Origin: Minisyncoccia bacterium
GTDB lineage: Bacteria > Patescibacteriota > Minisyncoccia > Phycocordibacterales > PALSA-1337
Direction of reading: 5' to 3'
DNA length: 64,000 nt
Assembly: GCA_044228445.1 (NCBI GenBank)
Contig: JBGAUV010000002.1
Span: 140,600-204,599, forward strand
The position numbers were made by a program, and so were the translations under genes. Below are positions 1 through 34,597 of the stretch, piece by piece. A model generated the notes under the pieces. That model had not been told where the DNA came from. It ran no database searches and worked only from the letters and a program-made list of their open reading frames with translations. How positions within the stretch are numbered: the stretch's first letter is position 1; every line of letters starts with the position of its first letter.

Positions 1-112
1 CACGGCGTTGAACTGGTCTGAAGTCGTAAGAAGGGCTTACTTGGAGCAGAAAAGCGTACACAGGGGCGAACAGGTGGCAAGAAGGGGTAAGTTTGTTGCT
101 GGGTCGCTTCTC

Positions 113-934
113 TTATTTGAAATCACCACCACTTTCATTCTCAAATTCCTTTCTGTATTGCTTCCAGCCAACAAAGTTTCCTACACGCTCATTTTCACTA
201 AGCGCTTGGGCCACATGCTCGAAAGGACTCCAGTGTCCCGATGATGCCAATCGTTCGCAAAGTTTTACATCACTTTCAACATCAGATGGTTTTCCATCAA
301 ATAGGAAATAGCTAACTCGGGCAGAACGTGCCGCACTTATCTTTTTCTTGAGTTCCGCATCAAGTTTATTTTCTTCGCCCTTTACGAAAGGCAAATGCCA
401 TTCACCCACCTTAAGCTTATCTGGCTTGGTCGATTCGAATATATTTATGATCTGTTTTGCTACTACCTGAATCTCTGGTTGTGCCGCAGGGTTGTCACGA
501 AGTTTAAGAAAATTACCCCATTCGGTAGCAGTAAGAACGATCTCTGTCATGATCCAAGGCTCGATCAATCGATTCAGGATTTCTTTATGTAGACCAGCTT
601 TCTCACCAATGTAATGGAAGAAACAAGCCACATATCGGGACCAAAGCCACACACGTTTTATAACAAAAAGTCGGAATCCTGTGATGGCCTCACCTGATGC
701 CATGCCAGCTTTATTTTCCCCGAAATAAACTGGGATGAAAGGTGTCAGGAGTACACGTGCACGCATTTTCTTTGCAGGTACTGCACGGCTTGATGCTGCA
801 TTTCTTGAGAGTGATCGGTGACTATTGATGTGTGGTTGTATGAATTTTGGTACTTTCAAAACAAACGTTGCGATCTTTTTTCCAGTCGCTTCACATTCAG
901 AGAGTGCTATCAGTTTTGTAGTTATTTCATTCAT
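113..934 (-). CDS. ThyX-like (flavin-dependent thymidylate synthase family) protein, apparently circularly permuted
   Basis: N-terminal ~185 aa align to the C-terminal two-thirds of ThyX as I recall it: ATFVLKVPKFIQPHINSHRSLSRNAASSR ~ [31 protein letters not shown], and TATEWGNFLKLRDNPAAQPEIQVVAKQIINIF ~ [34 protein letters not shown]. C-terminal ~90 aa align to the ThyX N-terminus: ISAARSARVSY...SSGHWSPFEH ~ LSAVRAARVSF...KHGHETPFEH. ATGA start/stop overlap with the upstream gene at 931-934. Confidence 0.5.
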   Translation of the reverse strand: MNEITTKLIALSECEATGKKIATFVLKVPKFIQPHINSHRSLSRNAASSRAVPAKKMRARVLLTPFIPVYFGENKAGMASGEAITGFRLFVIKRVWLWSRYVACFFHYIGEKAGLHKEILNRLIEPWIMTEIVLTATEWGNFLKLRDNPAAQPEIQVVAKQIINIFESTKPDKLKVGEWHLPFVKGEENKLDAELKKKISAARSARVSYFLFDGKPSDVESDVKLCERLASSGHWSPFEHVAQALSENERVGNFVGWKQYRKEFENESGGDFK

Positions 935-2055
935 AACTTTTCAATGACATCAGTGACCATTTCTGGTACATCTACGAAGCCCGAGTCTTTGATGTTTGAA
1001 GTAGATGCATACAGGGCTGATCCATAAAGTAAGGCTATCGTTTTTTCTATTTCGATTGGCGTAGATTCATAGCGTTTACCCTTGAATGTGATTGGAAATC
1101 CGTTATTGATAAGAGTGATATTATTCCAACGAATATCGCCATGCACATTGTCGCTTGGTTGTGTGGCTCCATTTCTTAAAAAAGTTGCTGGAAATTCTCT
1201 GTCGGATGAGGACATGCTTATAAGATAGATGCCGCTTGTAATTTTCTTATCGAGTTTGGCGATTTGTTCTGGCGTTAGAATATTTTTTCCCGTAACTCCG
1301 ACGACAGTATTTATGCGATTTTTTACAATAAAATCGACAAGCTCTTTCTCTGAATGAAAAGCTGTATCATGTCCGGTTACAAAATATCCGGCTTCTTGAA
1401 GAATAAGCATGGTATTGTTGCCCATTGGTCCGAGTCCAACTACTAAAATGCGCGGTTCAGTTACATTGTATTTGCGTATTACGTCTTCGATGCGATCGCA
1501 GCCGAGGCGTGCAATAAGTGGGCTTTCTTTATCCAATTTTATTTTAGAACGAGCAACATTGATGATTGGGAAAGATATCGACTTATTCTCAAGTTTGCGA
1601 AAACCAGATGATGTCTGTTCAATACCGACAATTTTTACTGAAATTGGCAGTTTATCTTTACGCTCGTTGAAGATATTTAACAATTCAGCTCCGTCATCAA
1701 TAATAATTACTGTGCTGGTGTCACTCAGTTTTCCTATAAGCTTTGAAAACAAATCTTCACAATTTTCTCTGTGCTGGTCATCAAAGGAGATATTGGGATC
1801 GAATGCTGGTTGCTCTGCGTCGAACCCAGAATCTTGTAATTCTTTTAGTACTTCGGTATTGGTGGAATAGATTTTGCCAATAGTATGAATGTTTTCCTTA
1901 GGTATGCCGAAGTCGGAAAGGAGGGCGAACATTTTCTCTTGTGGCTCCATGAGGTGTTGACATGCGCAAATATGCACATCTTTCAGTGACTCGTTTTGTT
2001 TTGGGAAAGCATCGGTAATGGCTTTCAAAAGTGGATAATTGTAGGAGTCTTTCAT
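931..2055 (-). CDS. S-adenosyl-L-homocysteine hydrolase-like NAD(P)-binding Rossmann protein
   Basis: IVGIEQTSSGFRKL resembles the SAHH GVSEETTTGVHRL motif. NVARSKIKLDKESPLIARLGCDRIEDVIRKYNV..ILVVGLGPMG resembles SAHH [45 protein letters not shown]. GxGxxG dinucleotide fold. 4-nt overlap coupling to the ThyX-like gene. Confidence 0.45.
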   Translation of the reverse strand: MKDSYNYPLLKAITDAFPKQNESLKDVHICACQHLMEPQEKMFALLSDFGIPKENIHTIGKIYSTNTEVLKELQDSGFDAEQPAFDPNISFDDQHRENCEDLFSKLIGKLSDTSTVIIIDDGAELLNIFNERKDKLPISVKIVGIEQTSSGFRKLENKSISFPIINVARSKIKLDKESPLIARLGCDRIEDVIRKYNVTEPRILVVGLGPMGNNTMLILQEAGYFVTGHDTAFHSEKELVDFIVKNRINTVVGVTGKNILTPEQIAKLDKKITSGIYLISMSSSDREFPATFLRNGATQPSDNVHGDIRWNNITLINNGFPITFKGKRYESTPIEIEKTIALLYGSALYASTSNIKDSGFVDVPEMVTDVIEKL

Positions 2056-2203
2056 TTTTTAATGATATCACGGGGACGGATCAAATCCTTAATTTAAGCC
2101 CTTAGATAATAACATAAGTAGTTGACTTTGTAAAGTTTTTGTGCTAGTTTAACCTCAGTAATTTCCGAACGAAAAAACACTCAAAAAACGAAAGGACTTT
2201 GTC

Positions 2204-4066
2204 ATGAAAAAACAATACTGGCTGATTCCGCTTCTCCTGGTGGCATTCATCAGGGCGGAAATGGTCGTAACTCCCGCATGGGACAGTTACGGCAAACCGG
2301 AAATGATCACCTACAACGCCTCACGGCGTGTGTATGTTGATCGGACCAACCGGATGGAAAACTGGGCGATCGCATACCGCAACACCAGCGCAGAAACACA
2401 GAAAATCTACGAGGACTTGAAAAAGCCTTTGGAGATTCCGGCCAAGCGCAAGCTCGTTTTGAAGCTCCGGACAGATTTGTTCTGTGAACAAAGGAACTAC
2501 ACATGCGCAGGCATGATGTTCCTCTCGAAGCATTCTCAAAGACGGCGACTCGTTCTGATCAACGTCGAACGGAAAGCTGACTACGAGGCACAGTATCGGG
2601 TCTGGCCGCATCTTGGCATTCTCTCTGTCGGCACTGCTGCACATGAAGAAGGCTGGGAAGTTGTGCTCTGGGACGAACTTGTCCAAGGACATGCTCCTCT
2701 TGATAAGTTAATTCAGGAGGATGACATTGTCGGATTAAGTCTCATTGTCTCGGGCATTGAACGCGGCATCGATCTTGCTCATGAAGCCAAGGAACGTGGG
2801 GCTCGGTATGTCATCGCTGGAAACGATTCAGCAATCTTCCGAGCAAACCAACTCCTTCGGCTTCCCGACAAACCGATTGACGCGGTCTTCACTTCGAACA
2901 GCCTGAATGCGGTCCGTCGCTTCTTCCGAGAAATCAACAACACGGGCATTGAAGGTATCCGCATTGCCGACGTACAAACTACGCCGGATGTGCAGAATAA
3001 GTCCAATGAACGGAGTCAGTTACTCGTTGAGATGGGCGATCGCAAACAGCTCAAGGATAGAGGAAGGTTCGAATCGGATGATGTCTTCATTGTCCCGAAG
3101 CTCGATCTTTTCCCTGAATCCTACTGGCAGGAGGTCTGGACTAACTATCGGTCGCAGTTCGGGAAGAAACACTCGAACCCAACGACTGTAAAAAATGGTC
3201 TGGCGCTTCTCGCTCAGGGCTGCACCAGGACTCGAGGAATTGATGTGTGCAGGTATTGCAGCATCTACGGCGTTGGAGACCTTCGTTTCCCATACCGCAA
3301 ATACGTTGTGGACCTTGCTGAGACCCTGAAAAGTTTCGGCATCGATATGGTCTTCAATGCAACCGACTCGGCCTTCGAAATGCGTCCTGTAGTTCAATCC
3401 TTGATCGAGGAGAATATCCGCTTCAACGGCTTGGAAATATATGTACGAGCTCAAGGCATCGCTCGAGCTCCGCAGTTGCTCGAAGAATGGATGTCGGTCG
3501 TCAAAGACCGCTTCATTGTCAATTGCGGTATGGACTCCGGTGACGATACTTCGCTCAAGCAAGGCATTGTGAAGTCATCGGTTCGTGGAGGTTCGCGTTT
3601 CGGTGAGAATCGAGAAGCAGTCCTTAACCTCAAGAAAAGTGGGGCACATCTTCACTACTCGCTCATCTTCGGTTCGCCTGGAGAGACGAGGGATACATGC
3701 GAAAGAAGTATGGAGTTTCTTGAGTGGACGATCGATACCTTGGGGAATCAGTTGGATATCTGCGAAACAGATTACTTCTGGCTGAACTTCGGTTCACCGG
3801 CCGCGCAAGTCTTCCACGACTATTCCTACGCACAAGAGCTTGCTGCCATGGCTCAGAAGTCAATCTCAAGGGAGGAATGGGAAATCAACTTTGCAAGTGT
3901 CGCCGATGCACTATCTGTGCCTGACGATACGGAAAAAGCATGGTACCGATTCTTCACGAGGATTGATTACGATACTGCAACGGAATACAACGAACGAGCC
4001 AGGTTGCGAATGGAGAAGGTCACCGGTAGCATTCGTGGCCGAGCGTTCCTTCCGCCGGTAAGTTGA
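2204..4066 (+). CDS. radical SAM superfamily-like protein with N-terminal Rossmann/B12-binding-like region (non-canonical cluster motif)
   Basis: GCTRTRGIDVCRYCS gives a Cx8Cx2C triad where rSAM has CxxxCxxC. HYSLIFGSPGET matches the rSAM GxIxGxPGET-like motif. The upstream region LGILSVGTAAHEEGWEVVLWDE is Rossmann-like. RBS gaaagga lies 8 nt upstream. ~50% G+C by my count of a 200-nt sample. Confidence 0.4.
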   Translation: MKKQYWLIPLLLVAFIRAEMVVTPAWDSYGKPEMITYNASRRVYVDRTNRMENWAIAYRNTSAETQKIYEDLKKPLEIPAKRKLVLKLRTDLFCEQRNYTCAGMMFLSKHSQRRRLVLINVERKADYEAQYRVWPHLGILSVGTAAHEEGWEVVLWDELVQGHAPLDKLIQEDDIVGLSLIVSGIERGIDLAHEAKERGARYVIAGNDSAIFRANQLLRLPDKPIDAVFTSNSLNAVRRFFREINNTGIEGIRIADVQTTPDVQNKSNERSQLLVEMGDRKQLKDRGRFESDDVFIVPKLDLFPESYWQEVWTNYRSQFGKKHSNPTTVKNGLALLAQGCTRTRGIDVCRYCSIYGVGDLRFPYRKYVVDLAETLKSFGIDMVFNATDSAFEMRPVVQSLIEENIRFNGLEIYVRAQGIARAPQLLEEWMSVVKDRFIVNCGMDSGDDTSLKQGIVKSSVRGGSRFGENREAVLNLKKSGAHLHYSLIFGSPGETRDTCERSMEFLEWTIDTLGNQLDICETDYFWLNFGSPAAQVFHDYSYAQELAAMAQKSISREEWEINFASVADALSVPDDTEKAWYRFFTRIDYDTATEYNERARLRMEKVTGSIRGRAFLPPVS

Positions 4067-4083
4067 AGTTCTTTGATCACAAG

Positions 4084-4116
4084 GCCCTCTGGTTCACTCC
4101 GGAGGGTCTTTTTTCG
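4084..4116 (+). terminator. intrinsic terminator after the rSAM-like gene
   Basis: Hairpin CCCTCTGG-N6-CCGGAGGG (one G-U pair) followed by TCTTTTTT. Confidence 0.6.
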
Positions 4117-4133
4117 TGATAAAATGTAAAAAC

Positions 4134-4793
4134 ATGAAAGAAAAAGCCATTGAAATACTGACACAAGTCCAAAAAGATAACCCGTTCATTAAGTCTATTT
4201 ACCTCTGGGGATCGATTACGACAGACGAATATACTGAAGGAAAAAGTGATATAGATGCTATAGCTTTTGTTGAGGAAAACACAGATTCTTCTGCAAGAGA
4301 CAGGATCAATGAAGTTCTTAGTAAAGAAATTTCTAGTCTCAAGATTAATTTTCTTTATGAATCAGAGCTGAATGATGGTCCATCAAAAGGCGGTCTTACG
4401 AAAGTCATACATCCTGCAGTAATTCTTTATGATTTTCCTGCATGGATTTATATAGATGGTGCTCAGTATAGAAAAGAAGATTTTAGTTCAGGTAGAACCT
4501 CATTAGATGAAGTTATAGGTATTTTAACAAACACGATTAAGGACAGGTTCCTACCTATTCCAAACGAGCAGGATTGTGTTTATTTTGTAAAAGCAGTAGC
4601 AAAACTTTTATATTTCAAAAATCAGAGAAGCTTACCATTCAAAGCATTTCGGTATGCTGACTTGATCGTTGATTCTAATGTGGAGGACAAAGATATTGCA
4701 GTTATTATTAGTGAGCTAAAGAAATCAAGTTGGAATCGACAGTTAATAGCTGAAAAAGCACCAGAAATTATTTCTTTTGTTAACCGTCTATAG
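4134..4793 (+). CDS. Pol-beta superfamily nucleotidyltransferase, ANT/AadA/Lnu-like
   Basis: YLWGSITTDEYTEGKSDIDAIAFV matches the GS...[DE]hDhhhhV nucleotidyltransferase signature (compare AadA HLYGSAVDGGLKPHSDIDLLVTV). The track start at 4116 is GTG; ATG at 4134 (MKEKAIEIL) is more likely. Confidence 0.55.
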   Translation: MKEKAIEILTQVQKDNPFIKSIYLWGSITTDEYTEGKSDIDAIAFVEENTDSSARDRINEVLSKEISSLKINFLYESELNDGPSKGGLTKVIHPAVILYDFPAWIYIDGAQYRKEDFSSGRTSLDEVIGILTNTIKDRFLPIPNEQDCVYFVKAVAKLLYFKNQRSLPFKAFRYADLIVDSNVEDKDIAVIISELKKSSWNRQLIAEKAPEIISFVNRL

Positions 4794-4865
4794 ATTTTGA
4801 ATTTGGTAACTTATGGAGTATACTAGGGGTGTTAAAGAGATAGAGGTGGTCCCTTTCTGTAACCT

Positions 4866-5066
4866 ATGAATATGAAAGACAAATTTTTCAAATTTTACGC
4901 CAATCTTCCTATGAATCTTCGTAAGGAGATTGTTTTAGATTTGGGTGCAGACCAAGGTGGTCCTATCACTTGGGAAGTGGCCTATAGAGAAATAGATGCT
5001 GATACAGATTTGGGTAAAAAGATACTTGAAAAATTAATCGAGCTTAAATTCATTCCTACTGAATAA
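4866..5066 (+). CDS. small hypothetical protein (66 aa), paralog of the next ORF
   Basis: RBS agaggtgg upstream. Shares a GKK(I/L)LE/IE..L C-terminal motif and overall pattern with ORF 5070-5306. Confidence 0.4.
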   Translation: MNMKDKFFKFYANLPMNLRKEIVLDLGADQGGPITWEVAYREIDADTDLGKKILEKLIELKFIPTE

Positions 5067-5069
5067 ATT

Positions 5070-5306
5070 ATGAATCAAAATGTAACAAACAATCCAGTAG
5101 AATTAAACCAGGATATCATCAACTTGGTTATTGCTCGTTTGAAGACTATTCCCTCAAACGCAACCCTTTCTGTTGGTAGTGATAAAGAACCGATGTCAGC
5201 AGAAGTTCTTATTGAGGAAGTAAAGAAACAAACTGAAATTGGTAAGAAGCTTATTGAATCACAACTCTTTTTCTTGCGCTCTCTGCAGGATTTACCTGTA
5301 GCCTAA
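5070..5306 (+). CDS. small hypothetical protein (78 aa), paralog of the previous ORF
   Basis: Starts 4 nt after the previous stop. EIGKKLIESQLF resembles DLGKKILEKLIEL of the neighbour. Confidence 0.4.
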   Translation: MNQNVTNNPVELNQDIINLVIARLKTIPSNATLSVGSDKEPMSAEVLIEEVKKQTEIGKKLIESQLFFLRSLQDLPVA

Positions 5307-5314
5307 TATGATTT

Positions 5315-5938
5315 ATGTCACTTCTTATCACTCGCCCAAAATATGAATTGGTCACTCACTATTTCTACCATTGGAGTGAGGAAATTGTAAAAGAAGCTAA
5401 GAAAAGGATATCGAGCGTTATTGATCTTCAAAAAGAGAAGGCTTCTCGAAAACTTGTCGATAGTTATCTTGAGAAACAAAAGCCGGAGATAGCTATTTTC
5501 AATGGTCATGGCAATGATGTATGTATCACAGGACACAATCAAGAGGTCCTTATTGAGTCTGGTAAAAACTCTCACTTACTTAAGGACAAAGTTGTATATA
5601 TGCGCTCATGTGACTCTGGCAAGACGCTCGGACCACAGGCTATAAAAGAGGGCTGTAAGGCATTTATCGGTTATCGAGAACCTTTTAATATTTGGACAGA
5701 CAGAACGTCAGTCAATGAGCCTTTGAAAGATACATACGCTAAACCTTTCTTTGAAACTTCAAACGAAGTGCCACTTTCTCTAATCAAGGGCAAGACTGCC
5801 CGGGAAGCTCATAATGAAAGCATGACTGCATACCGTAAAGTTATCTCTCATCTGCTTACAAGCAATGCTGAAAACTCATTCGTAGTATCTGACCTTATTT
5901 GGAATATGCATAACCAGGTGTGTTTGGAGAAAAATTAG
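5315..5938 (+). CDS. hypothetical protein with His-Gly...Cys dyad reminiscent of clan CD (caspase-like) peptidases
   Basis: IAIFNGHGND and VVYMRSCDSG: each candidate catalytic residue follows a hydrophobic strand, His then Cys, ~35 aa apart. Assignment is tentative. Confidence 0.25.
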   Translation: MSLLITRPKYELVTHYFYHWSEEIVKEAKKRISSVIDLQKEKASRKLVDSYLEKQKPEIAIFNGHGNDVCITGHNQEVLIESGKNSHLLKDKVVYMRSCDSGKTLGPQAIKEGCKAFIGYREPFNIWTDRTSVNEPLKDTYAKPFFETSNEVPLSLIKGKTAREAHNESMTAYRKVISHLLTSNAENSFVVSDLIWNMHNQVCLEKN

Positions 5939-6432
5939 TGATGCATACATTTCTTAAAAAAGATTCATTGGATAGTTGGAATACATTGCCGCCGGTGCCA
6001 ACTGAAAAAATTATAAATGTAAATTGTCACAAATTTGTCTTATGCGAGTTAGGAAAAATTACTTGGGACAATATGGTCTCTGAGAGTAGGGACGAAGATT
6101 TCACTTTTGGTGAGAAAATTCGAGGTATATCAGATCTTTCTTATAGGCATATAACCACTCTCGAATCATTACTGTCACTTGCTGGTGAGGTGTGTAACGT
6201 CGGCAAGATTTACATTGGTCAAATCCGAGACTCGCAAACGGGAGAGATGGCACATTCATTTATTGTTGATGTGCAGCAGAATAATCATTATGTGTGCTTT
6301 GATAAGCCGGGGTTTAAATATCCCTTTCAAGTCAGCAATCTTGAGGAAATCTGGGGCTTCGTCAATAAAGATGGTGAGAGGTCAAATCAAAATCAAGAAT
6401 GGAGATTTATACCAATCGAGGAAGTGAGGTGA
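5920..6432 (+). CDS. hypothetical protein (170 aa)
   Basis: ORF overlapping the previous gene by 19 nt. No recognisable motif. Confidence 0.4.
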   Translation: MFGEKLVMHTFLKKDSLDSWNTLPPVPTEKIINVNCHKFVLCELGKITWDNMVSESRDEDFTFGEKIRGISDLSYRHITTLESLLSLAGEVCNVGKIYIGQIRDSQTGEMAHSFIVDVQQNNHYVCFDKPGFKYPFQVSNLEEIWGFVNKDGERSNQNQEWRFIPIEEVR

Positions 6433-6556
6433 ATATTGCGAACATTGTGCACTTTATCGGGTAAGCACGGCACTTAGGGATTGCAGAGCAAATTTAGTAT
6501 AATCCTTAACACCCGCCAGTTCTGAAAGCCAAGTTGAGGGGTCATGCAATAAAAAC

Positions 6557-6590
6557 AAAGGGCATCTATGATGCCTTTTGTTTTTGTTGC
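6557..6590 (+). terminator. intrinsic terminator
   Basis: AAAGGGCATC-TAT-GATGCCTTTT followed by TGTTTTTGTT. Confidence 0.55.
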
Positions 6591-6885
6591 ATATGATTCT
6601 ACTGGAGATGAGAAGGCCGGACTGAGCGAAGGCGAAGGAGGCGGGGTCGACAGCCGAGCTAGCAGGCGAGGACTAGTGACCGATTCCCTGCAGGGTCACG
6701 ATTGACTTTTATAAAAAGTATGCTATTATTTTAATGCTAGTTCTTTGATTATTTGTCATAGCTGAAAGTGACTTAATTTGTAGGTAATTTTCGGCTATGA
6801 CAAAACCGTGATTGCGGCAATGTCATCTTGTACAAAAAATGGTATTCCTTTCAAGGATACGCCAACAAAGTGAAAGACTAAACCA

Positions 6886-7638
6886 ATGAATGGTACAGCT
6901 GATAAGGTGGAAATTGAAGAAGTTGATCTGTGTGATGATGGAAGGAGCTTGCCAGGGACAGAGTTGTCCTTAGCACACTCACTTTTCTGTGCACTGCGAG
7001 ACGAAGGTTTTGATGAAAGTGACATTGGTAAGCTTGTAAAAGCAAAGCCTGAGTTGCTCGGGTATATCCTCGGATTTCTACGAGGAGAAGTTCAACTTCA
7101 CGATATTCCTTGCGAACTTGTAAACCTGGACAAACATCCTGGTATTAAGCGTGACAAGAAAAAGAAAATCAACTTGTTCAGGGATCTCAGATTGGGTACA
7201 TGGCTCACGGATTGGTCTGACGGGATAAAAATCGCTGGCAAGTATGTTGACATTGTTCGCCCGAGGGGATTAGGTCTGCAGAGCCGTGGCTTTTTTACCC
7301 GAAGTACACTCAATCCTGAAAAAAACAGGGATGAGTATTGTATCGACCTAAATGCGCAGGCGGCAAAGTGGTTCTATGAGAATCACAAAGACGCAACCCG
7401 TAACTTCTTTGAGTGTGTAGGTCGTATAGCGAAATCCGACGAATGGAATGATGATAAAATCTTCTTTTTGGGAACACTTTGGTCAGTGGATGGAGTAGCT
7501 CATGCCATGGCTTTGGTATCGGATAGTGAAGGTTATATTTACTGTCGACTCGAGCCACTTCCAAGTGGTGATTGGCCAGAGAACTGCTATATTGCTGTTC
7601 TGGTTGATAACCTAGAAGTGCTTAAGAGTTACAAGTAG
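6886..7638 (+). CDS. hypothetical protein (250 aa), GC-rich ORFan
   Basis: Long ORF with no recognisable motif. G+C clearly above backbone. Confidence 0.4.
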   Translation: MNGTADKVEIEEVDLCDDGRSLPGTELSLAHSLFCALRDEGFDESDIGKLVKAKPELLGYILGFLRGEVQLHDIPCELVNLDKHPGIKRDKKKKINLFRDLRLGTWLTDWSDGIKIAGKYVDIVRPRGLGLQSRGFFTRSTLNPEKNRDEYCIDLNAQAAKWFYENHKDATRNFFECVGRIAKSDEWNDDKIFFLGTLWSVDGVAHAMALVSDSEGYIYCRLEPLPSGDWPENCYIAVLVDNLEVLKSYK

Positions 7639-7674
7639 CGCTTCATAAGTTGAAGAACTTATTAAAATCTTCAA

Positions 7675-7702
7675 GCCACACCCCGATAGGTGTGGCTTTT
7701 AT
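7675..7702 (+). terminator. intrinsic terminator
   Basis: GCCACACC-CCGATA-GGTGTGGC followed by TTTTATC. A second small hairpin ATAAGTT-GAAG-AACTTAT sits at 7644-7662. Confidence 0.55.
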
Positions 7703-8837: not shown

Positions 8838-9455
8838 ATGAATAAGAAATATTTTTTAATTCCCATATTTTTAATCATTGGTTTTATTGCAATATATTTC
8901 TTTACAAATAAGCCTATTATTAAAAACTATCCTCCAAAGAGTCAGACTATTATTGCATTCGGAGATAGCCTTATTAGAGGAACTGGTAGTACATTAGGTA
9001 ATGACTTTATTTCTCTTTTATCAAAAAAATTAAATAAAAATATAATAAATGAAGGTATACCTGGTGAAACTACTAGTGATGCTTTAAATAGAGTTGATGA
9101 AATTATAAATAAAGACCCAGGAATTGTTATTTTATTATTTGGTGGCAATGACTATTTAAGAAATAGACCTCAAACAGAGACTTTTAGTAATTTAAGACTT
9201 CTGATTAAAAAATTACAGGATAATGGTAGTATGGTCATTCTTTTAGGGATTAGAGGGGGACTTTTGGTGGATAAATTTAGCTCTGATTTTGAAAAATTGG
9301 CAGATGAAACTGGTGTTATTTTTATACCAAATGTTCTTGAGGGTCTCATAGGTAAACCAAAGTATATGTCTAGTGATAATATTCACCCAAACAATGAAGG
9401 ATATGCAAGGATTGCTGATAAGGTCTATAATAAAATTAATAAATACATTAAATAA
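8838..9455 (+). CDS. SGNH/GDSL-family hydrolase (lipase/esterase-like), membrane-anchored
   Basis: AFGDSLIRG (GDSL block I), LLFGGND (block III), DNIHPN (DxxH block V). N-terminal TM helix. Confidence 0.8.
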   Translation: MNKKYFLIPIFLIIGFIAIYFFTNKPIIKNYPPKSQTIIAFGDSLIRGTGSTLGNDFISLLSKKLNKNIINEGIPGETTSDALNRVDEIINKDPGIVILLFGGNDYLRNRPQTETFSNLRLLIKKLQDNGSMVILLGIRGGLLVDKFSSDFEKLADETGVIFIPNVLEGLIGKPKYMSSDNIHPNNEGYARIADKVYNKINKYIK

Positions 9456-9974
9456 ATGAAAAAAATATTTTTTATATTAATTACGATTGTGGTACTTATT
9501 TCAGGTGTTTTTTACTATAATAAATTAAATACAGGTTATAAAGTCGTAAATAATAAACTTCATCATTTTTCTTTTAAATACCCAAGTTCATGGAAAATAA
9601 TTGGAAGTGGTAAAACAATTGAACAATCTAGTTTTGTAAGTGTTATAGGTAATAATATTTCTTTTACAATAACTCAATATGATAATACTAAAGGCTATAC
9701 ACCTAAACAGTGGTATGAAAGAGATACAATAGAAAAATTAGGACCTAATAATTATCCATATCCGGAAAAACTTGTTGCAAGTACTCAGAATACTATTTTA
9801 AATGGATACAATGCATATAAGGTAGTTACAAATGATGCAGGTGCTAGTTATGACTATTTTTTATCAAAAGGAAATGAAATATACGTAATTAATATAGAAA
9901 GAAACGATACGATTGATTATTCAAAAAATCAAAGATATATAGATGATATTTTAAACAGTCTGTCTTGGAATTAA
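9456..9974 (+). CDS. hypothetical membrane-anchored protein (172 aa)
   Basis: Starts immediately after the GDSL hydrolase stop. N-terminal TM helix. Confidence 0.45.
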   Translation: MKKIFFILITIVVLISGVFYYNKLNTGYKVVNNKLHHFSFKYPSSWKIIGSGKTIEQSSFVSVIGNNISFTITQYDNTKGYTPKQWYERDTIEKLGPNNYPYPEKLVASTQNTILNGYNAYKVVTNDAGASYDYFLSKGNEIYVINIERNDTIDYSKNQRYIDDILNSLSWN

Positions 9975-10064
9975 TTATTTAAAATGAATAAATTGACATA
10001 AAATAAAAAAGTATTATCCTTTTTGTAGAAGTACAAAAAATCAAAACAACTAAAAGGAGGAAAT

Positions 10065-10931
10065 ATGGAAAAAGATGAAAGGGAGGATTTTCTATTAAAG
10101 AGCTATCTAAATGATGTCCGTGATTACAATCTCATTTCCAGAGATAGAGAGGTTCAACTCGCTCAAGAAATAGCAAAAAGAAATAACGAAGCAAGAAATG
10201 AACTTGCTCTAGCAAATGTACGTTTAGTGATAAAAATCGCTATGGACTTTGACGGCTATGGTCTTTCTATTCATGACTTAATCCAAGAGGGTAACACTGG
10301 TCTCATGAAGGCTGTTGATAGATTTGACCCAACTAAGGGTGCAAAGTTTTCTACTTATGCAGCTTGGTGGATCAAACAGGCAATTAAAAGAGCTTTAAGT
10401 AACTCAGGATTTACCGTAAGGATTCCAGTTCATCTCGTGCAGTCAATTTCTAATTTGAATAGATTCAGAGAAAAATTTGAGAAGGAAAATAGAAGGTTAC
10501 CAAATGATGATGAAATTAAACAAGAACTAGGTCTTGTTGCTGATACAGTTGACGCAGCAAAGACCGTGCGAAATGGTAGAATATCACTTGATTCAAAATT
10601 TGGTGAAAGTGAGATAAGTCTTTCTGATATTCTCGAGGATGAAACATCTATCAATCCATCTTCTGCTAATGAGCTAGATGATCAACTTTCTAATTTAGCT
10701 GATCTAGTTAATAGATTAAGTAACAGAGAAAAAAACATAATCGAGTGTCGTTTTGGTCTTAATGGCAAAGAACAGATGATACTTGATGATATCGGTAAAA
10801 TTTATGGAATAACCCGAGAGAGAGTTAGACAAATTGAGGCAAAAGCACTTAAGAAGTTGCGGAATTGGCTTGATAAAAAGAATTCCGAAGTAGATCTTGA
10901 TTTGCCACCAGCAGTCTACAATGTTGGATAA
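10065..10931 (+). CDS. rpoD: RNA polymerase sigma-70 family factor (compact, 288 aa)
   Basis: Region 2 (DLIQEGNTGLMKAVDRFD, STYAAWWIKQAIKRAL). Region 4 HTH (LDDIGKIYGITRERVRQIEAKALKKLR). Strong RBS aaaggagg upstream. Confidence 0.85.
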   Translation: MEKDEREDFLLKSYLNDVRDYNLISRDREVQLAQEIAKRNNEARNELALANVRLVIKIAMDFDGYGLSIHDLIQEGNTGLMKAVDRFDPTKGAKFSTYAAWWIKQAIKRALSNSGFTVRIPVHLVQSISNLNRFREKFEKENRRLPNDDEIKQELGLVADTVDAAKTVRNGRISLDSKFGESEISLSDILEDETSINPSSANELDDQLSNLADLVNRLSNREKNIIECRFGLNGKEQMILDDIGKIYGITRERVRQIEAKALKKLRNWLDKKNSEVDLDLPPAVYNVG

Positions 10932-10943
10932 AACATACACAAA

Positions 10944-10971
10944 CAGCCTGACTACGTCAGGCTTGTTTTTA
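10944..10971 (+). terminator. intrinsic terminator after rpoD
   Basis: CAGCCTGAC-TAC-GTCAGGCTTG followed by TTTTT. Confidence 0.6.
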
Positions 10972-11130
10972 TATATAAAATAAGACTAAAAAGAGCGATT
11001 TTATCCACAGTTTTAGCTTGCTTTACTTTTTATCTTATGTATGGTATACTCTCTATCAGACGTTTGCAGTACATTGCAAACAAAAAATATTGCTTCGTCC
11101 CTAAGACGAAGCGCAACCAAAGGATAAAGA

Positions 11131-12078
11131 ATGAAAAAGTTCACGGCGATTGTCGTGACATTGTTCACGGCAATCCTTTCCCTTGCGCTCGTCGCAAGGG
11201 GACAAGCACCTGCGGGTGCTGCGGGTGCCATTGTGGTGCCACCGGTGTTCCCGGAGTTCCTGCCAATCGGAGACGAGTGGCAGATGAAGGACTGGGCGGT
11301 GACTAACCGTCAGTTCCGGATGAACGGAAACCCTTACAATGTGTCGACAATCTGGAGTATTGAGTATACTGAGGGTAATGGCTCTACTAGTACAATGGGA
11401 GCATCATCTTCAGGATACAAGTTTCTAGACTGGGATGACTTCATGCATACAGCTCAGAAGATCGGTCTCGATCTTCTGAGGCGCGTAAAGGCTACAAATA
11501 CTTTTGATAATACCAAAACCATGAAGTTCTCAGTGATTCATGGTTATGACAACATTGTCGCTCGAAAGGGTGTCAATGCTGTATATATCCGTAAGGATAT
11601 TGGTCTTGTTGAAGGTGTTGGTCCAGAATCATTTTTGGATGAAACGGGATTGATACTCCTTCAAGGAGTGGTTCGTGTTGATGGTCTTGAGAAGTTCGAA
11701 GTGACCACTAATGGTGGGTACTCTTGGACTGAGAGACCTGTACAAGACTACTTCGTCCTTAAATTTAGTGATCTTGAATCCGGGAATCCTATCCGGTACA
11801 GGGTTACTGCTAAAGGACAGTCTCAGGTTTACACCCAGACCGGAGATAAACTGTCTCAACCTACAGTCAGAGTTTTGAACGATAAAGTGATCGTTCTATA
11901 CAAGACTCCTGGTTCCAAGACTAGGATCGAGTATAAAAACTCTTTTGATGGTGAATGGGTCATTATGAAGGAGTTTCCCTCAACTGACTTGAGCCAGTAC
12001 AAAGAGATACTGAACTATCCACCAGAAATCGGTTCCGGTGGAGTCAGTATAAGGCTCTTCCGAGCCTCGTCGGAATAA
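11131..12078 (+). CDS. secreted hypothetical protein (315 aa), GC-rich
   Basis: Signal-peptide-like N-terminus MKKFTAIVVTLFTAILSLALVA. The 5' UTR holds a perfect hairpin GCTTCGTC-CCTAA-GACGAAGC at 11091-11111. Confidence 0.5.
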   Translation: MKKFTAIVVTLFTAILSLALVARGQAPAGAAGAIVVPPVFPEFLPIGDEWQMKDWAVTNRQFRMNGNPYNVSTIWSIEYTEGNGSTSTMGASSSGYKFLDWDDFMHTAQKIGLDLLRRVKATNTFDNTKTMKFSVIHGYDNIVARKGVNAVYIRKDIGLVEGVGPESFLDETGLILLQGVVRVDGLEKFEVTTNGGYSWTERPVQDYFVLKFSDLESGNPIRYRVTAKGQSQVYTQTGDKLSQPTVRVLNDKVIVLYKTPGSKTRIEYKNSFDGEWVIMKEFPSTDLSQYKEILNYPPEIGSGGVSIRLFRASSE

Positions 12079-12090
12079 ACGAGGTCAAGC

Positions 12091-12124
12091 AAAAAGGGCG
12101 TTACTTGCGTAACGCCCTTTCTTC
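12091..12124. terminator. bidirectional intrinsic terminator between convergent genes
   Basis: AAAAA-GGGCGTTAC-TTGC-GTAACGCCC-TTTCTTC. Confidence 0.65.
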
Positions 12125-12142
12125 TATCATTTTATAAACTAA

Positions 12143-15100
12143 TTAAATTTCACCTGCATTTGATATTCTGAGTAAGGCTGTATTACTAAATTCATCTGGA
12201 ATCATTGGGTCTGCGCTAACACATTTCAAATAGAATGAGTATGTACCTGTTTCAGCTATCTTAGCTTCAAGTCCTAGTGCACTACCGTTTTTGCTATTAT
12301 TAAACCAATTCCATACAGCAGAACCATCGCTTCCATCTGGTTTAATTGTAACTGATGTACAACTATATCCACTCAAGTTATTACTCTTCCACGCTAGATT
12401 GAATGTTCCTGTTGGACCTACTTTGTAAGGTACTACTGCTTTTGGATCTCCGACTACAGGTGTTGTAATTGGCTTATCTATTACTCCAGAGCCACCAATA
12501 AATAATTTAATATTTGGATTAGATGTCACTATTGGAGGTGCAGGAGGTGGAGGATTCTGTCCATTGTTACCTCCTCCGCCGCCACCATTAATTGGATCTG
12601 GTGGAGGTGGTGGAGGAGCAGGTGATGTTACTGTTAATGTTACAGAGTTACTATTTATTGTTGGCGAGTTAGCTTTTGTACATGTGATAGAAAATATATA
12701 TGAACCATCAACTATAGATGAAAGGTTTGTTGGTAAAGAAGTGTTTGTACCAGTTATTGAACCTCCCCAAGCCCATATGCTATTTCCACTACTACCATCA
12801 GGTTTAACATTATTAAATGAACAACTATATCCAATAGGTGGGTTAGCCATTGTCCACTGCAAACCAAATGTATCACCTCTAACAACACTTGTAGAAGGAC
12901 CATAACTTACATCAACTGATTTTTTTATACCAAGACTTAGATTTGAAACGGGACAACCAATTGTAGTTACTTTAGGCGTTATGACACTTGCAACTGGTGA
13001 TGAAGCTAATGTCTTACCTGAAACTACAGCACTAATAACATAGTTATACTTTGTGCCAGTATTAAATACGGGATATTTTTCTGTATTCATTGTTGCAGAG
13101 CCAGATAGGGTATATGTTGCATCAATTTTGTTAATTACTGTATTTAATCTAGTTATTGTATATGAACTAGCATTTGGTATCGGACTCCATGTTTGACTTA
13201 CCCATAATTCAAGCGGTGTACATTTATCAGAAGAAGGTGTTACTGTAAATTGATAGTTCGGAGGAATAATAGGAGCGGGTTGAATTATAATCTTTACTGT
13301 ATTGCTTGATACTATATTTCCATTTGAACAAGATATATTGAGTGTATATGTTCCAATTTCAAGACCTGTAGTTTCCAAACTATTTGCTTGACCATTTATT
13401 TCGGTTCCATATGACCAGATTGAATTGTTTATATTACCAGTAGGCATTGTTGTCTTTTGGTCACATACGGTATAGTCGGGAGTCAAGTTGCTTGCCCATA
13501 GTAAATCAAATTTTTCACCAGAAACAACAGTCGCTGAATTATTCATACTTGATACCGAAGTTTGATAGGTATAGTTTGAAAAGTTAATATTTGAATCTGT
13601 GCTCTTTTTTATAAACAACTTGATTGATTTTGCTACTCCGACTGGACAACCCTCAAGTGGAGCGATTACTGATATTTGTGGAGAAGCTTGTTTTTCTATT
13701 CCACCAACAATAGCTGTAACTTTATAGTAATATTTTTTTCCGGTTTCAAATGTAAAGGTAGGATATACCTCAGTATTTTCTGTTCCTGTAACACTAAATA
13801 TTACCGTTTCTGGTGTACTATCCTTAATTCTGTATAGTTTGTATGAGGTAGCTCCTGGTACTGGACTCCACTTTTGTTTTATCCAAATATCATTTGCTGA
13901 ACATTGGTTTGAAGAAGTTGTAACTGTAAAATTATATACAGGAGGAAGTTCATTTATTGTTATTCTTGAAACATTACTTGTAACTGTATTTCCAGCGGTA
14001 TTTGTACAAGACAGCATTAGCTTATATGTACCGTATGGTTTATTTTGACTTGAAAGACCTGTAACTATTGAATTAAGTCCCGTACCATAAACCCAAAGAC
14101 TATTATTTGTATTATTATTAACATCCTGTGTTGCTTGTCTACATGTATAGTCAGGAGTCAAGTTGCTTACCCATCTTATGTCAAAAGTTTTTCCGGCAAA
14201 TAGACTTACATCGGTATTGGATGCAGAAGTAGTTGTTGTTAATGAATAATTAGACAAGTCTTTTGTCATATCAGTTGATTCTTTTGCAAATAGTTTTATT
14301 GATGGTGAAGCAACACTTTGTGGGCAATTTGCTCCAGTTAAGACTGTTGGTGAGAATGCAAAAACAGAAGGGGATAGTGCCTGCTCTGCTCCAGAAATTA
14401 CAGCTGAAACTTTATATTCATAAAGTTCACTAAATGAAAGTATTTTATCTTCAAATGTAATCTTTCCTGCAACCATATAGTATGGAGTGGTTGTGCTATA
14501 TACTTTTTCAGGTTCGTTCGTGTGCATTCTATAAAGTCTATATGAACTTGCTCCTGGAATTGGACTCCAACTTGCAGTAATTTTTAAATCACTCAAATTA
14601 CAACTATCTGCACTTCTGATTGCTGTAAGGTTATATGGTAATGGCGTAGATTGAACGCTTATATTATATGTTGTTGAGTGTGATATTGTTTGTCCACCAG
14701 TAGTTACAGTTGTGTTTATTGGAACAGAATTACAAGTAAAACCAGTTCCTATATTGTACGGATCACCGTTTATTGTATATCCGCCAGCACCACAACCATA
14801 AGGACCTGTCGCTACAGCTATTCTCTGATTTGCTATCATATCCTTACCTTGATCACCTAATATTTTAGTACCAGTAGATGTTAAACAATCTCCATCATCG
14901 TATTGAATACATTTAACTGAAAATTGTCCACCGTTATTGTAGTCGCTACTTGGAGAAAAACCTGAATCCTTACTACAACCAAAATAGAAACCGTTATACA
15001 TTGTAGGAGAGTTATCATGTGTCCAGTCTACCTTACAATAATAAACATATGGTGTGGTATTTGTTGTTGTAACTACTGTTGTACCTTGTTTTGTATATGT

Positions 15101-34282: not shown

Positions 34283-34297
34283 GATCTGTCATCAAAA

Positions 34298-34336
34298 GTC
34301 CCGTACTACATTAACTTGTGTACGGGTCTTTTTTTA
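34298..34336. terminator. hairpin terminator between convergent genes
   Basis: CCCGTAC-N13-GTACGGG followed by TCTTTTTTTATTT. The loop region can pair further. Confidence 0.55.
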
Positions 34337-34342
34337 TTTGAA

Positions 34343-34597
34343 CTATTTATTCTTAATTGATTCTAGCAGTGGCGTTATAACTCTATCTAGTAGGATATCT
34401 TTTCCTAAATATGTTGTTGGCTTTTTTAAATATTTTTCCCAAACAAAAATTACTTTTTCTGTTACATAAGAAATGTTTTGTCTCGTTTCAGGCTTTTCTA
34501 AAGCCTTTCTGACATCAAAACCATAATACCCTAGTATGATAAGTACAATAAGTATAAGTATTATCCAATTTAGAAAACCGCCTTGTTTATTTTTCAT
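34343..34597 (-). CDS. small membrane protein (84 aa)
   Basis: One TM helix WIILILIVLIILGYYGF. Confidence 0.4.
   Translation of the reverse strand: MKNKQGGFLNWIILILIVLIILGYYGFDVRKALEKPETRQNISYVTEKVIFVWEKYLKKPTTYLGKDILLDRVITPLLESIKNK

What the first reader, a model, noticed from the sequence alone, without database searches (positions are those of the whole stretch)
2204..4066. Radical-SAM-like enzyme with Cx8Cx2C instead of CxxxCxxC
The only Cys triad near the expected position is GCTRTRGIDVCRYCS (C-x8-C-x2-C). The downstream GxIxGxPGET-type glycine-rich motif (HYSLIFGSPGET) is intact. An N-terminal ~100-aa extension begins with a hydrophobic signal-like segment, which is unusual for a cytoplasmic Fe-S enzyme. 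A Rossmann-like region precedes the core, as in class B (cobalamin) rSAMs, but I do not see a clear DxHxxG.
Basis: partly seen in the sequence, partly recalled or inferred. Interest (0 to 1): 0.5.

Follow-up and report, generated by a model that had tools for sequence, protein, structure and literature searches.

The report
Membrane-tagged radical SAM enzyme, stretched cluster loop
This gene encodes an uncharacterised radical SAM enzyme with the two-domain build of the vitamin-B12-type class, found only in tiny symbiotic (CPR) bacteria; its iron-sulfur-binding cysteines are spaced further apart than the textbook motif, which is unusual but has precedents, and its substrate is unknown.

Summary

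The three Cys align with Cys1-3 of the canonical motif, and the extra residues all lie between Cys1 and Cys2. The other SAM-binding motifs are kept.

The long loop is not a one-off. Nearly all of the 150 nearest protein clusters have 4-12 residues there (mostly 6-9). Published precedents exist (QueE CX14CX2C, HmdB CX5CX2C, ELP3/YhcC).

Missing DxHxxG is normal for class B. Cobalamin binding is untested.

The family is restricted to Patescibacteria, patchy, monocistronic and has no partner enzyme. The only recurring neighbour is a divergent TrmB-type regulator.

Specific to the long form are a 12-residue hydrophobic N-terminus and a basic ~100-aa domain with no PDB fold match.

The gene is systematically GC-richer than its hosts, which is unexplained.

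Verdict: a real, probably active enzyme; a new variant of a known kind; substrate unknown.

The parts
2190..2196 (+). Ribosome-binding site GAAAGGA, 8 nt upstream of the ATG
   Evidence: Read directly from the sequence.
2204..4066 (+). Whole ORF, 620 aa plus TGA stop: class-B-architecture radical SAM protein of a Patescibacteria-restricted family
   Evidence: ORF list. More than 200 homologues of ~600-635 aa at 47-80% identity. AF2 model pLDDT 83.9, pTM 0.76.
2216..2251 (+). N-terminal hydrophobic segment YWLIPLLLVAFI (res 5-16), preceded by KK and followed by a conserved [KR]-[AV]-[ED]; proposed uncleaved membrane tether
   Evidence: The uncharged run is most often 12 residues across 109 full-length members, with 1-2 K/R before it. 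It is modelled as a helix at residues 3-14. The would-be -1 residue is small in only ~28% of members.
2204..2542 (+). Family-specific N-terminal extension (res 1-113): small alpha/beta domain, basic (pI 9.8, net +9), faster-evolving than the core, absent from short-form relatives
2543..2983 (+). Rossmann / flavodoxin-like B12-binding-type domain (res 114-260) with no conserved Cys and no DxHxxG; the most conserved part (WPHLG..VGT, DIVGLS, GNDSAIFRA, PIDAVFTSN)
2984..3193 (+). Helical linker between the Rossmann domain and the barrel (res 261-330)
   Evidence: Secondary structure of the model, helices 270-285 and 305-322.
3194..3793 (+). Radical SAM (beta/alpha)6 partial TIM-barrel core (res 331-530)
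3221..3259 (+). Cluster-binding loop CTRTRGIDVCRYC = C340-x8-C349-x2-C352, with an aromatic residue (Y351) before the last Cys
   Evidence: Invariant Cys. Present in 119/120 members. Aligns with Cys1/2/3 of canonical GCPYxCxFC, with the insertion wholly between Cys1 and Cys2.
3356..3382 (+). beta2 motif NATDSAFEM, aligned to the canonical 'DDxF' motif of related radical SAM enzymes
   Evidence: N385, T387, D388, S389, E392 and M393 are invariant. Alignment with canonical relatives.
3521..3544 (+). beta4 motif NCGMDSGD, aligned to the canonical G[IF]ESG
   Evidence: N440, G442 and S445 are invariant. Alignment.
3653..3688 (+). beta5 motif HYSLIFGSPGET (GxIxGxxE-type), followed by the invariant C499 (nt 3698-3700)
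   Evidence: C499 is Leu, Trp or Ser in the sister clades, so it is family-specific and not part of the SAM cluster.
3794..4063 (+). C-terminal helical domain (res 531-620) with the aromatic WYxxFTxI motif (res 580-587), shared only with the expanded-loop clade
   Evidence: W580, Y581, F584, T585 and I587 are invariant. The motif is present in sisters with x6-x12 loops and absent from canonical-loop relatives.
4081..4110 (+). Intrinsic terminator (12-bp stem, 7 GC pairs, T-run) 15 nt after the stop; the gene is monocistronic
   Evidence: Terminator scan and sequence.

Best explanation
The gene encodes a functional single-cluster radical SAM enzyme with class B (B12-binding-domain type) architecture.

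Shown:
- An N-terminal Rossmann/B12-type domain followed by a (beta/alpha)6 radical SAM barrel.
- Three invariant Cys in the beta1-alpha1 loop that align with the canonical triad. The first loop is lengthened by five conserved residues (TRTxG).
- The beta2, beta4 and beta5 SAM-binding motifs are retained.
- There are no further conserved Cys clusters.

Inferred:
- C340, C349 and C352 hold a [4Fe-4S] cluster, and its fourth iron binds SAM.
- One-electron reduction cleaves SAM to a 5'-deoxyadenosyl radical, which abstracts a hydrogen atom from the substrate.
- The extra loop residues bulge outward, as in QueE, without changing the site.

Less certain (about 40%): the strongly conserved Rossmann domain binds cobalamin base-off, and the enzyme C-methylates an unactivated carbon as TsrM, TokK and CysS do.

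Inferred localisation: the 12-residue hydrophobic N-terminus plus the basic orphan domain tether the long form to the cytoplasmic face of the membrane.

Inferred substrate class: a small molecule or membrane-associated metabolite that is scavenged or imported, with the enzyme expressed on demand. This follows from the gene being stand-alone and, across the wider clade, repeatedly paired with a divergent local transcription factor and sometimes with transport components. A ribosomal peptide, RNA or housekeeping protein target is less likely.

The confidence value refers to the identity-and-mechanism core, not to the substrate guess.
For: - Profile: PF04055 is above its gathering score, and 24/32 members match.
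- Cys triad: invariant, in 119/120 members, and aligned to canonical Cys1-3 with the insertion only between Cys1 and Cys2. The beta2, beta4 and beta5 motifs are retained.
- Precedent: an extended first loop coexists with a canonical site in QueE CX14CX2C, which has a solved structure, and in HmdB CX5CX2C (PMC4389238). Other variant spacings are catalogued in PMC9477430.
- Single cluster: only four Cys are invariant.
- Class B without DxHxxG is the rule (PMC12931638).
- Stand-alone gene: own RBS and terminator. No recurrent partner among 127 nearest neighbours except TrmB, with 7. TrmB adjacency has odds ratio 7.7, p = 7.5e-4.
- Sister loci carry divergent HTH_10 or tandem Lrp/AsnC regulators, plus Peripla_BP_6, LysE and ABC components.
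- N-terminal features.
Against: - No biochemical data exist for any member or for the sister clade.
pLDDT in the loop (residues 341-360) is only 66-70.
- By the positive-inside rule the N-terminus (K/R, then 12 hydrophobic residues) could be read as an export signal, which would contradict a cytoplasmic Fe-S enzyme.
- The context evidence for a small-molecule substrate is heterogeneous. The LysE link did not generalise (0 of 14 metagenomic sister loci). The window itself has no regulator next to the gene.
Confidence: 0.8

Rival explanations
1. A cobalamin-independent radical SAM enzyme of the AprD4 type. The Rossmann-like domain is a substrate-binding or structural module, and the chemistry is a radical dehydration, isomerisation or similar reaction on a sugar-like or other small metabolite. 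It is not a methylation.
Against: The Rossmann domain is the most conserved part of the protein, with many invariant polar residues, which suggests a bound cofactor. 19/32 members and all the sisters examined do match PF02310. TsrM, MgmA, CysS and TokK, which all bind cobalamin, score almost as well as AprD4. The NCBIfam AprD4 model (NF033070) is not among the window protein's hits at E<=1, and the nearest sister P0128 scores only 30 bits against a cutoff of 500.
Confidence: 0.3
2. A membrane-lipid-modifying enzyme. The N-terminal tether places a class B radical SAM methylase or cyclase on the bilayer, where it alters acyl or isoprenoid chains of lipids scavenged from the host. This would be analogous to the hopanoid methylases HpnP/HpnR, the ladderane radical SAM protein or the archaeal GDGT-modifying enzymes.
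For: A conserved hydrophobic N-terminus plus a basic domain. The window protein's best NCBIfam local hits are HpnR and the 'lipid biosynthesis B12-binding/radical SAM protein'. Lipid genes lie nearby in some loci: FA_desaturase in L001, CMAS in L003, and a GDSL lipase and a PlsC-type acyltransferase in the window. One sister sits next to a polyprenyl synthase.
Against: The NCBIfam hits are 26-27 bits against cutoffs of 360-650. No lipid gene is a recurrent neighbour in the 127-protein census. Short forms without the tether exist and keep the same catalytic core. Tes and GDGT-MAS did not appear among the fold hits.
Confidence: 0.2
3. A macromolecule-modifying enzyme (protein, rRNA or tRNA), like MgmA/Mmp10 acting on methyl-coenzyme M reductase or RimO/MiaB. 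It would be stand-alone because its substrate is encoded elsewhere.
Against: The family has only ~209 clusters at 90% identity and a patchy spread, so it is not universal in CPR. Dedicated divergent regulators are atypical for housekeeping modification enzymes. The catalytic body is acidic, with family pI ~6.1 and net charge -8. There is no auxiliary-cluster Cys in the N-terminal domain as methylthiotransferases have. MiaB/RimO family models are not among the window protein's NCBIfam hits at E<=1.
Confidence: 0.12
4. A RiPP maturase acting on a small ribosomal precursor peptide, like the class B radical SAM C-methyltransferases of the rSAM_ocin_1 or PoyC type.
For: The sisters' best sub-threshold NCBIfam hit is often 'RiPP maturation radical SAM C-methyltransferase'. 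A thiopeptide cluster lies 3 kb from the Streptomyces sister.
Confidence: 0.04

Closest known systems
Class B (cobalamin-dependent) radical SAM methyltransferases with solved structures: TsrM (6WTE), TokK (7KDX), CysS (9N1B), MgmA/QCMT (9CCB)
   Different: Only 11-16% identity, and a family profile finds none of them by sequence. They use the canonical CXXXCXXC (PMC12931638), while this family has Cx8Cx2C. This family adds a ~113-aa N-terminal extension with a hydrophobic tip. Cobalamin binding is untested here. All curated class B NCBIfam models score far below their cutoffs.
AprD4 radical SAM 1,2-diol dehydratase (6FD2)
   Different: 13% identity. AprD4 does not bind cobalamin and works in an aminoglycoside gene cluster (the partner reductase AprD3 is from my own knowledge). 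This family has no partner or cluster. The NCBIfam AprD4 model (NF033070) is not among the window protein's hits, and the nearest sister P0128 scores 30 bits against a cutoff of 500.
Radical SAM enzymes with expanded Cys1-Cys2 loops: QueE (CX14CX2C), HmdB (CX5CX2C), ELP3/YhcC (CX7/CX11CX2C), DUF5131 (CX6CX2C), Megacluster-4-6 sub-clusters (CX8/CX9CX2C)
   Same: The same kind of deviation: extra residues between the first two Cys, with the CxxC end preserved. For QueE a structure shows a canonical site with one extended loop (PMC4389238; PMC9477430).
   Different: These are different subgroups of the superfamily with different architectures and no B12-type domain. The RadicalSAM.org list names no variant spacing for the B12-binding subgroup, Megacluster-2-1.
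Sister clade annotated 'B12-binding domain-containing radical SAM protein' (~497 aa) in Streptomyces, Tenacibaculum, Salegentibacter and metagenomes (P0142 family)
   Same: Nearest relatives outside the CPR family (147 bits to the family profile). Same domain order, an expanded loop, GxPGET, and the C-terminal W..FTH motif. Also patchy and uncharacterised. Often next to a divergent transcription factor.
   Different: Cx6Cx2C instead of Cx8Cx2C. No N-terminal extension or hydrophobic tip. They pass PF02310. C499 is replaced by Leu. Found in free-living bacteria, next to LysE in two phyla, but that link is not general.
Methylthiotransferases RimO (4JC0) and MiaB (7MJV)
   Different: Methylthiotransferases carry three Cys in the N-terminal domain for an auxiliary cluster, plus a C-terminal TRAM domain (my own knowledge). 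This family has no conserved Cys in residues 114-260.

Membership tests
Radical SAM superfamily (PF04055) | Profile score at or above Pfam's gathering threshold | tested here: met
   33.9 bits against 29.5, residues 338-506. 24 of 32 family members match at E<=0.01. Detection is marginal: about half of the database members carry no precomputed Pfam hit.
Radical SAM superfamily (PF04055) | Canonical CX3CX2C spacing of the three cluster Cys | tested here: not met
   No C...C..C in the protein or in any of 120 members; the spacing is Cx8Cx2C. Variant spacings are accepted within the superfamily, so this does not exclude membership.
Radical SAM superfamily (PF04055) | Three conserved Cys in the loop after beta1, ending in C-x-aromatic-C, positionally equivalent to the canonical triad | tested here: met
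   C340, C349 and C352 are invariant. They align with Cys1-3 of GCPYxCxFC relatives. The loop lies between strand 331-334 and helix 365-378 of the model.
Radical SAM superfamily (PF04055) | Partial (beta/alpha)6 TIM-barrel fold | tested here: met
Radical SAM superfamily (PF04055) | SAM-binding motifs on beta2, beta4 and beta5 (GGE-equivalent, ribose motif, GxIxGxxE) | tested here: met
   TDSAFE, GMDSGD and IFGSPGET are conserved and align with DDxF, G[IF]ESG and GxPGET of canonical relatives.
Radical SAM superfamily (PF04055) | Binds a [4Fe-4S] cluster and reductively cleaves SAM | not testable with these tools
   Needs biochemistry. Thiolate geometry could not be measured because model coordinates are not exposed.
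Class B / B12-binding-domain radical SAM enzymes | N-terminal Rossmann-type B12-binding domain (PF02310) preceding the barrel | tested here: inconclusive
Class B / B12-binding-domain radical SAM enzymes | Binds cobalamin (base-off) and uses it in catalysis | not testable with these tools
   There is no sequence signature to test, since DxHxxG is absent from all solved members. AprD4 and ArsL show that the fold alone does not prove binding.
Any curated class B equivalog (HpnR, HpnJ, BchE, PhpK, ladderane rSAM, MgmA, BzaD, AprD4, rSAM_ocin_1) | NCBIfam score at or above the model's curated cutoff | tested here: not met
   The window protein's best hits are HpnR at 27.5 against 650 and ladderane B12 at 25.9 against 360. 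Ten sister proteins also pass none.
Methylthiotransferases (MiaB/RimO) | Three conserved Cys in the N-terminal domain for an auxiliary [4Fe-4S] cluster | tested here: not met
   No conserved Cys between residues 114 and 260. Only C340, C349, C352 and C499 are invariant.
SPASM/twitch radical SAM enzymes | C-terminal Cys-rich auxiliary-cluster domain | tested here: not met
   The C-terminal domain (residues 531-620) has no conserved Cys.
Sec-type cleavable signal peptide | n-region, h-region and a c-region with small residues at -3 and -1 | tested here: not met
   The n-region (1-2 K/R) and a 12-residue h-region are present. The would-be -1 residue is Val 48, Ile 13 and Pro 8 against Ala 19 and Thr 9 of 109 members, so about 28% are small. 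The following residues form a confident strand of the N-domain. No dedicated predictor such as SignalP was available.
RiPP maturase | Adjacent precursor peptide and/or an RRE (PqqD-like) recognition domain | tested here: not met
Known anti-phage defence or phage protein families | Match to a PADLOC or PHROGs model | tested here: not met
   No hit in either library. No relative on IMG/VR contigs.

The most novel reading that the evidence does not exclude
The N-terminus is a genuine export or type-II anchor signal (K/R n-region, 12-residue h-region, no other hydrophobic segment). The whole catalytic body would then sit on the outside of the CPR cell at the host interface. That would make it an extracytoplasmic radical SAM enzyme acting directly on host-surface or environmental molecules. 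It would require an unknown route for Fe-S (and cobalamin) loading and for supply of SAM and electrons outside the cytoplasm.
Probability: 0.04. Interest if true: 0.9.

Novelty: new variant of a known kind. Interest (0 to 1): 0.4.

Why it matters
CPR/Patescibacteria have very small genomes and few recognisable enzymes of secondary or cofactor-dependent chemistry. A conserved, costly Fe-S (and possibly B12-dependent) enzyme that they keep, or keep acquiring, is likely tied to how they exploit hosts or scavenged metabolites.

The family also shows that the B12-domain branch of the radical SAM superfamily contains a sizeable clade that has abandoned the CX3CX2C spacing. In that clade the first loop has 4-12 residues and varies in length between sub-families. 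The clade is barely detected by Pfam, and no NCBIfam family model names it; sources call its members 'hypothetical' or give generic names such as 'radical SAM protein'. For annotation, motif-based filters that require CxxxCxxC will miss it.

For enzymology, the clade includes members from culturable Streptomyces and Tenacibaculum. These offer tractable entry points for finding the chemistry and for learning what the longer loop does.

It is not a new kind of system, and many uncharacterised radical SAM families exist, so the interest is moderate.

Tried and rejected
1. ThyX-like and AHCY-like neighbours as a functional context (nucleotide modification, SAH recycling). Rejected: neither clusters with any neighbour in 38 other loci, and the closest relative (76% identity) has a different context.
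2. A conserved operon or partner enzyme. None was found in all-vs-all clustering of 560 flanking ORFs or in a Pfam census of 127 nearest neighbours.
3. Tes/GDGT-type lipid synthase. The paper was read. The architecture is unrelated and there is no fold hit.
4. Defence-system or phage origin. There are no PADLOC or PHROGs hits and no viral contigs.
5. LysE-exporter module. It looked promising in Tenacibaculum and Streptomyces but failed to generalise, with 0 of 14 metagenomic sister loci.
6. Sequence-based link to any solved structure. Neither phmmer nor the family profile found one.
8. Measuring Cys-Cys distances in the model.
9. AFDB50 fold search. The library was not installed.
10. Literature on CPR plus radical SAM plus cobalamin or lipid. 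Nothing specific to this family.
11. Looking up the window's own contig. Only a 1.9-kb duplicate was on record.
Full report
**1. What is there**

The window carries an ORF at 2204-4066 on the + strand. It encodes 620 aa, starts at an ATG with a GAAAGGA ribosome-binding site 8 nt upstream, and ends in TGA. A strong intrinsic terminator follows 15 nt later at 4081-4110, with a 12-bp stem, 7 GC pairs and a T-run. The upstream gene is transcribed divergently across a 148-bp spacer. The gene therefore looks monocistronic.

The protein has eight Cys. The only triad is C340-x8-C349-x2-C352, inside GCTRTRGIDVCRYCS. There is no CxxxCxxC and no DxHxxG. HYSLIFGSPGET is at residues 484-495. Residues 5-16 (YWLIPLLLVAFI) are hydrophobic and follow KK.

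**2. It is a conserved family, not a chance motif**

A search of 5.8 billion proteins returned 209 clusters. Nearly all are 600-635 aa with 47-80% identity to the query. Where the source names an organism, it is almost always a Patescibacteria/CPR lineage: Parcubacteria, Microgenomates, Berkelbacteria or Buchananbacteria. The proteins are annotated 'hypothetical' or with the generic COG name YgiQ/UPF0313.

A scan of species-representative genomes gave 36 loci. Their titles name CPR lineages (Paceibacteria, Kerfeldbacteria, Uhrbacteria, Moranbacteria, Doudnabacteria, Zambryskiibacteria and others), apart from three metagenome-assembled genomes labelled Gammaproteobacteria.

In a 32-sequence alignment, C340, C349, C352 and C499 are invariant, within the block AQGC[TG]R[TA]xGxxxCxYC[ST]I. 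GC-x8-C-x-[FYWH]-C occurs in 119 of 120 members. None has the canonical spacing.

**3. Fold and family**

- Pfam: Radical_SAM scores 33.9 bits (cutoff 29.5) over residues 338-506. B12-binding scores 20.4 bits (cutoff 32.1) over residues 133-220. Across the family, 24/32 and 19/32 members match these at E<=0.01.
- NCBIfam: only weak local hits to class B families (HpnR, ladderane B12 rSAM, PhpK, HpnJ), far below their cutoffs.
- Sequence against the PDB: neither the protein nor a family profile finds any solved structure.
- AlphaFold2 model from the family alignment: confident, with pLDDT 83.9 and pTM 0.76. It shows a Rossmann-type domain (114-260), a helical linker, six beta/alpha units (331-530) and a helical C-terminal domain.
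- Foldseek against the PDB: the top 13 hits are all class B radical SAM enzymes (TsrM, AprD4, MgmA, TokK, CysS), with E from 2e-13 to 3e-8.

**4. The Cys spacing in context**

I aligned the protein with relatives of every spacing class, including canonical GCPYxCxFC proteins. C340, C349 and C352 fall on Cys1, Cys2 and Cys3, and all the extra residues lie between Cys1 and Cys2. The beta2 (TDSAFE ~ DDxF), beta4 (GMDSGD ~ G[IF]ESG) and beta5 (GSPGET) motifs are kept.

An exhaustive profile search of 1.84 billion representatives found 740 proteins at E<=1e-3. The family proper collapses to a few 50%-identity clusters. The score then falls from at least 378 bits to about 147 bits, into proteins of ~450-520 aa that lack the N-terminal extension.

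Reading the loop in the best 150 representatives gives this picture:
- the CPR family has x8;
- its closest short relatives have x6 to x8;
- the next clades have mostly x6, x7, x8 (a C.WR.K.GGC.FC group) or x9, up to x12;
- the canonical x3 appears only in the weakest tail.

None of ten sisters passes any NCBIfam cutoff.

The long loop is therefore a clade-wide, length-variable trait. Published precedents exist:
- QueE has CX14CX2C, and its structure shows a canonical site with one extended loop. HmdB has CX5CX2C (PMC4389238).
- RadicalSAM.org lists CX4 to CX11 variants in ELP3/YhcC, DUF5131 and Megacluster-4 sub-clusters. It lists none for the B12-binding subgroup (PMC9477430).
- A 2026 review states that all solved B12-dependent radical SAM enzymes use CXXXCXXC and bind cobalamin base-off without DxHxxG. 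It also states that AprD4 and ArsL have Rossmann-like domains but no cobalamin (PMC12931638).

It follows that the missing DxHxxG is uninformative, that the spacing is unusual for this architecture but not for the superfamily, and that cobalamin binding cannot be decided from sequence or fold.

**5. The N-terminal extension**

- The hydrophobic run is most often 12 residues in 109 full-length members. It is preceded by 1-2 K/R and followed by a conserved [KR]-[AV]-[ED].
- That is too short for a standard transmembrane helix. Its length fits a signal-peptide h-region. However, the would-be -1 residue is small in only about 28% of members and is usually Val.
- The next residues (16-24) are a confident beta-strand of the domain.
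- The extension is basic (pI 9.8, net +9), while the rest of the protein is acidic.
- It evolves faster than the core, with 32% against 58% mean column identity.
- It is absent from short-form relatives that keep Cx8Cx2C (L031, L033, L041, P0125, P0126).

I read it as an uncleaved membrane tether plus an orphan adaptor domain. An export signal is not formally excluded.

**6. Genomic context**

All-vs-all clustering of 560 flanking ORFs from 39 loci found no recurrent enzyme, carrier or small ORF. A Pfam census of the 127 nearest neighbours gave TrmB 7, ABC_tran 4, EamA 3, Polbeta 3, and nothing else above 2.

The TrmB-type regulator is usually immediately upstream and divergent. Adjacency is enriched, with odds ratio 7.7 and Fisher p = 7.5e-4, not corrected for phylogeny. 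It also appears two genes upstream of the closest sister, P0128.

The window's own neighbours are not conserved context: a phage-type ThyX-like gene, a very divergent AHCY-like gene and an MntA-like nucleotidyltransferase.

In the wider clade the same position is occupied by other transcription factors:
- HTH_10 in L047/L048 and L063;
- tandem Lrp/AsnC in L054, L062 and L065.

Transport components also recur:
- Peripla_BP_6 directly upstream in L044 and L067;
- an ABC operon in L049;
- LysE directly adjacent in Tenacibaculum and Streptomyces.

The LysE link did not generalise, with 0 of 14 metagenomic loci. One caveat applies: the tandem AsnC proteins could be NirDL/AhbAB-like rather than regulators, since there is a weak sub-threshold hit.

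Overall, the context favours an inducible small-molecule function over a housekeeping macromolecule modification or a RiPP. This evidence is indirect.

**7. Composition**

The gene has the highest GC3 of all 50 ORFs of at least 150 aa in the window, 0.574 against a median of 0.177. Across 37 loci its GC3 exceeds the median of flanking ORFs in 32, by a median of +0.11 (Wilcoxon p = 3e-6). It ranks first in 15 loci.

The distribution is patchy and identity is high across CPR lineages. Together these suggest repeated lateral transfer. The one-directional bias is not explained by that alone. No copy was found on viral contigs, and there are no defence or phage family hits.

**8. Mechanism**

Shown: the architecture, the conserved triad in the right place, the retained SAM motifs, and the absence of auxiliary-cluster Cys.

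Inferred: a [4Fe-4S] cluster on C340/C349/C352 binds SAM and generates a 5'-deoxyadenosyl radical for H-atom abstraction. The five extra, conserved loop residues (TRTxG) bulge away from the cluster as in QueE. They might contribute to substrate or reductant docking.

Whether a cobalamin-mediated methyl transfer follows, or cobalamin-independent chemistry as in AprD4, is open. I put cobalamin-dependent methylation at about 40% and AprD4-like chemistry at about 30%. For substrate class, my rough split is 45% small molecule or imported metabolite, 20-25% membrane lipid, about 12% protein or RNA, and about 4% RiPP.

**9. Verdict**

This is a real and probably active enzyme. It is a new variant of a known kind. 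Its features are class B architecture, a systematically expanded cluster loop, a CPR-specific membrane-tether module, no named family and unknown function. Interest is moderate at 0.4.

Noticed in passing
window 113-934 (-) and 931-2055 (-): A ThyX-like protein (Pfam Thy1 48 bits; PHROGs phrog_85 thymidylate synthase 194 bits) overlaps by 4 nt with a very divergent adenosylhomocysteinase-like / Rossmann protein (NCBIfam 31 bits; PDB 6aph E 7.8e-4). This may be a nucleotide-modification pair of phage type. Neither gene is a conserved neighbour of the radical SAM family.
   Followed up: partly
window 1-7700 versus 7775 onward; also 11131-12078 (+): The first ~7.7 kb has raised GC and GC3 (0.25-0.57), against 0.12-0.25 for the genes beyond. 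It may be a laterally acquired island that contains the radical SAM gene. ORF 11131-12078 (315 aa, no Pfam hit) is a second GC3 outlier at 0.476.
   Followed up: partly
37 related loci (L001-L041) and window 2204-4066: The radical SAM gene is GC3-richer than its flanking ORFs in 32 of 37 genomes (median +0.11, p = 3e-6) and ranks first in 15. Lateral transfer alone does not explain a bias in one direction.
   Followed up: partly
window 4116-4793 (+), 4866-5306 (+): An MntA-like nucleotidyltransferase (Pfam NTP_transf_2 31.7 bits; NCBIfam MntA antitoxin 18 bits) has no obvious HepT toxin partner. Two small ORFs of 66 and 78 aa with unknown function follow it.
   Followed up: no
window ~34000-36000: Cumulative GC skew peaks here, and gene orientation switches from mostly + to uniformly - at 34.3-34.6 kb. 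This is the pattern expected at a replication terminus.
   Followed up: no
window 62004-63836 (-): A class I aminoacyl-tRNA synthetase (LeuRS-like: editing-domain fragment, catalytic core, anticodon-binding domain) carries a NUDIX domain at residues 43-169. This is either an unusual domain insertion or a split/fused gene. A second class I aaRS lies at 16913-19114.
   Followed up: no
window 12143-16030 (-): A 1295-aa ORF whose only Pfam hit is a weak Y_Y_Y domain. It is probably a large surface protein of unknown function.
   Followed up: no
L050 (Tenacibaculum CP116303) 9324-11488; L052 (Streptomyces OZ186850) 10001-12197: In two distant phyla the Cx6Cx2C sister radical SAM gene lies directly next to a co-directional LysE-family exporter (gaps of 48 and 23 bp), in opposite gene order. 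In Tenacibaculum the pair lies ~5 kb downstream of a phage-type integrase gene. The linkage is absent from 14 metagenomic sister loci.
   Followed up: yes
L054, L062, L065 (upstream of the sister radical SAM genes): Tandem Lrp/AsnC-type proteins of 316-322 aa are transcribed divergently ~100 bp upstream. They could be regulators or NirDL/AhbAB-like siroheme-decarboxylase homologues (NirdL-like_HTH 22.8 bits, below cutoff). The second reading would hint at tetrapyrrole chemistry, and the sisters' best sub-threshold NCBIfam hit is often BchE.
   Followed up: no
L005 12139-13502: A Thoeris-like pair (ThsA_Macro and ThsB_TIR) lies 2-3 kb from the family member in one CPR genome. A TIR protein also lies near sister P0164 (L046). 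There is no systematic association with defence genes.
   Followed up: no
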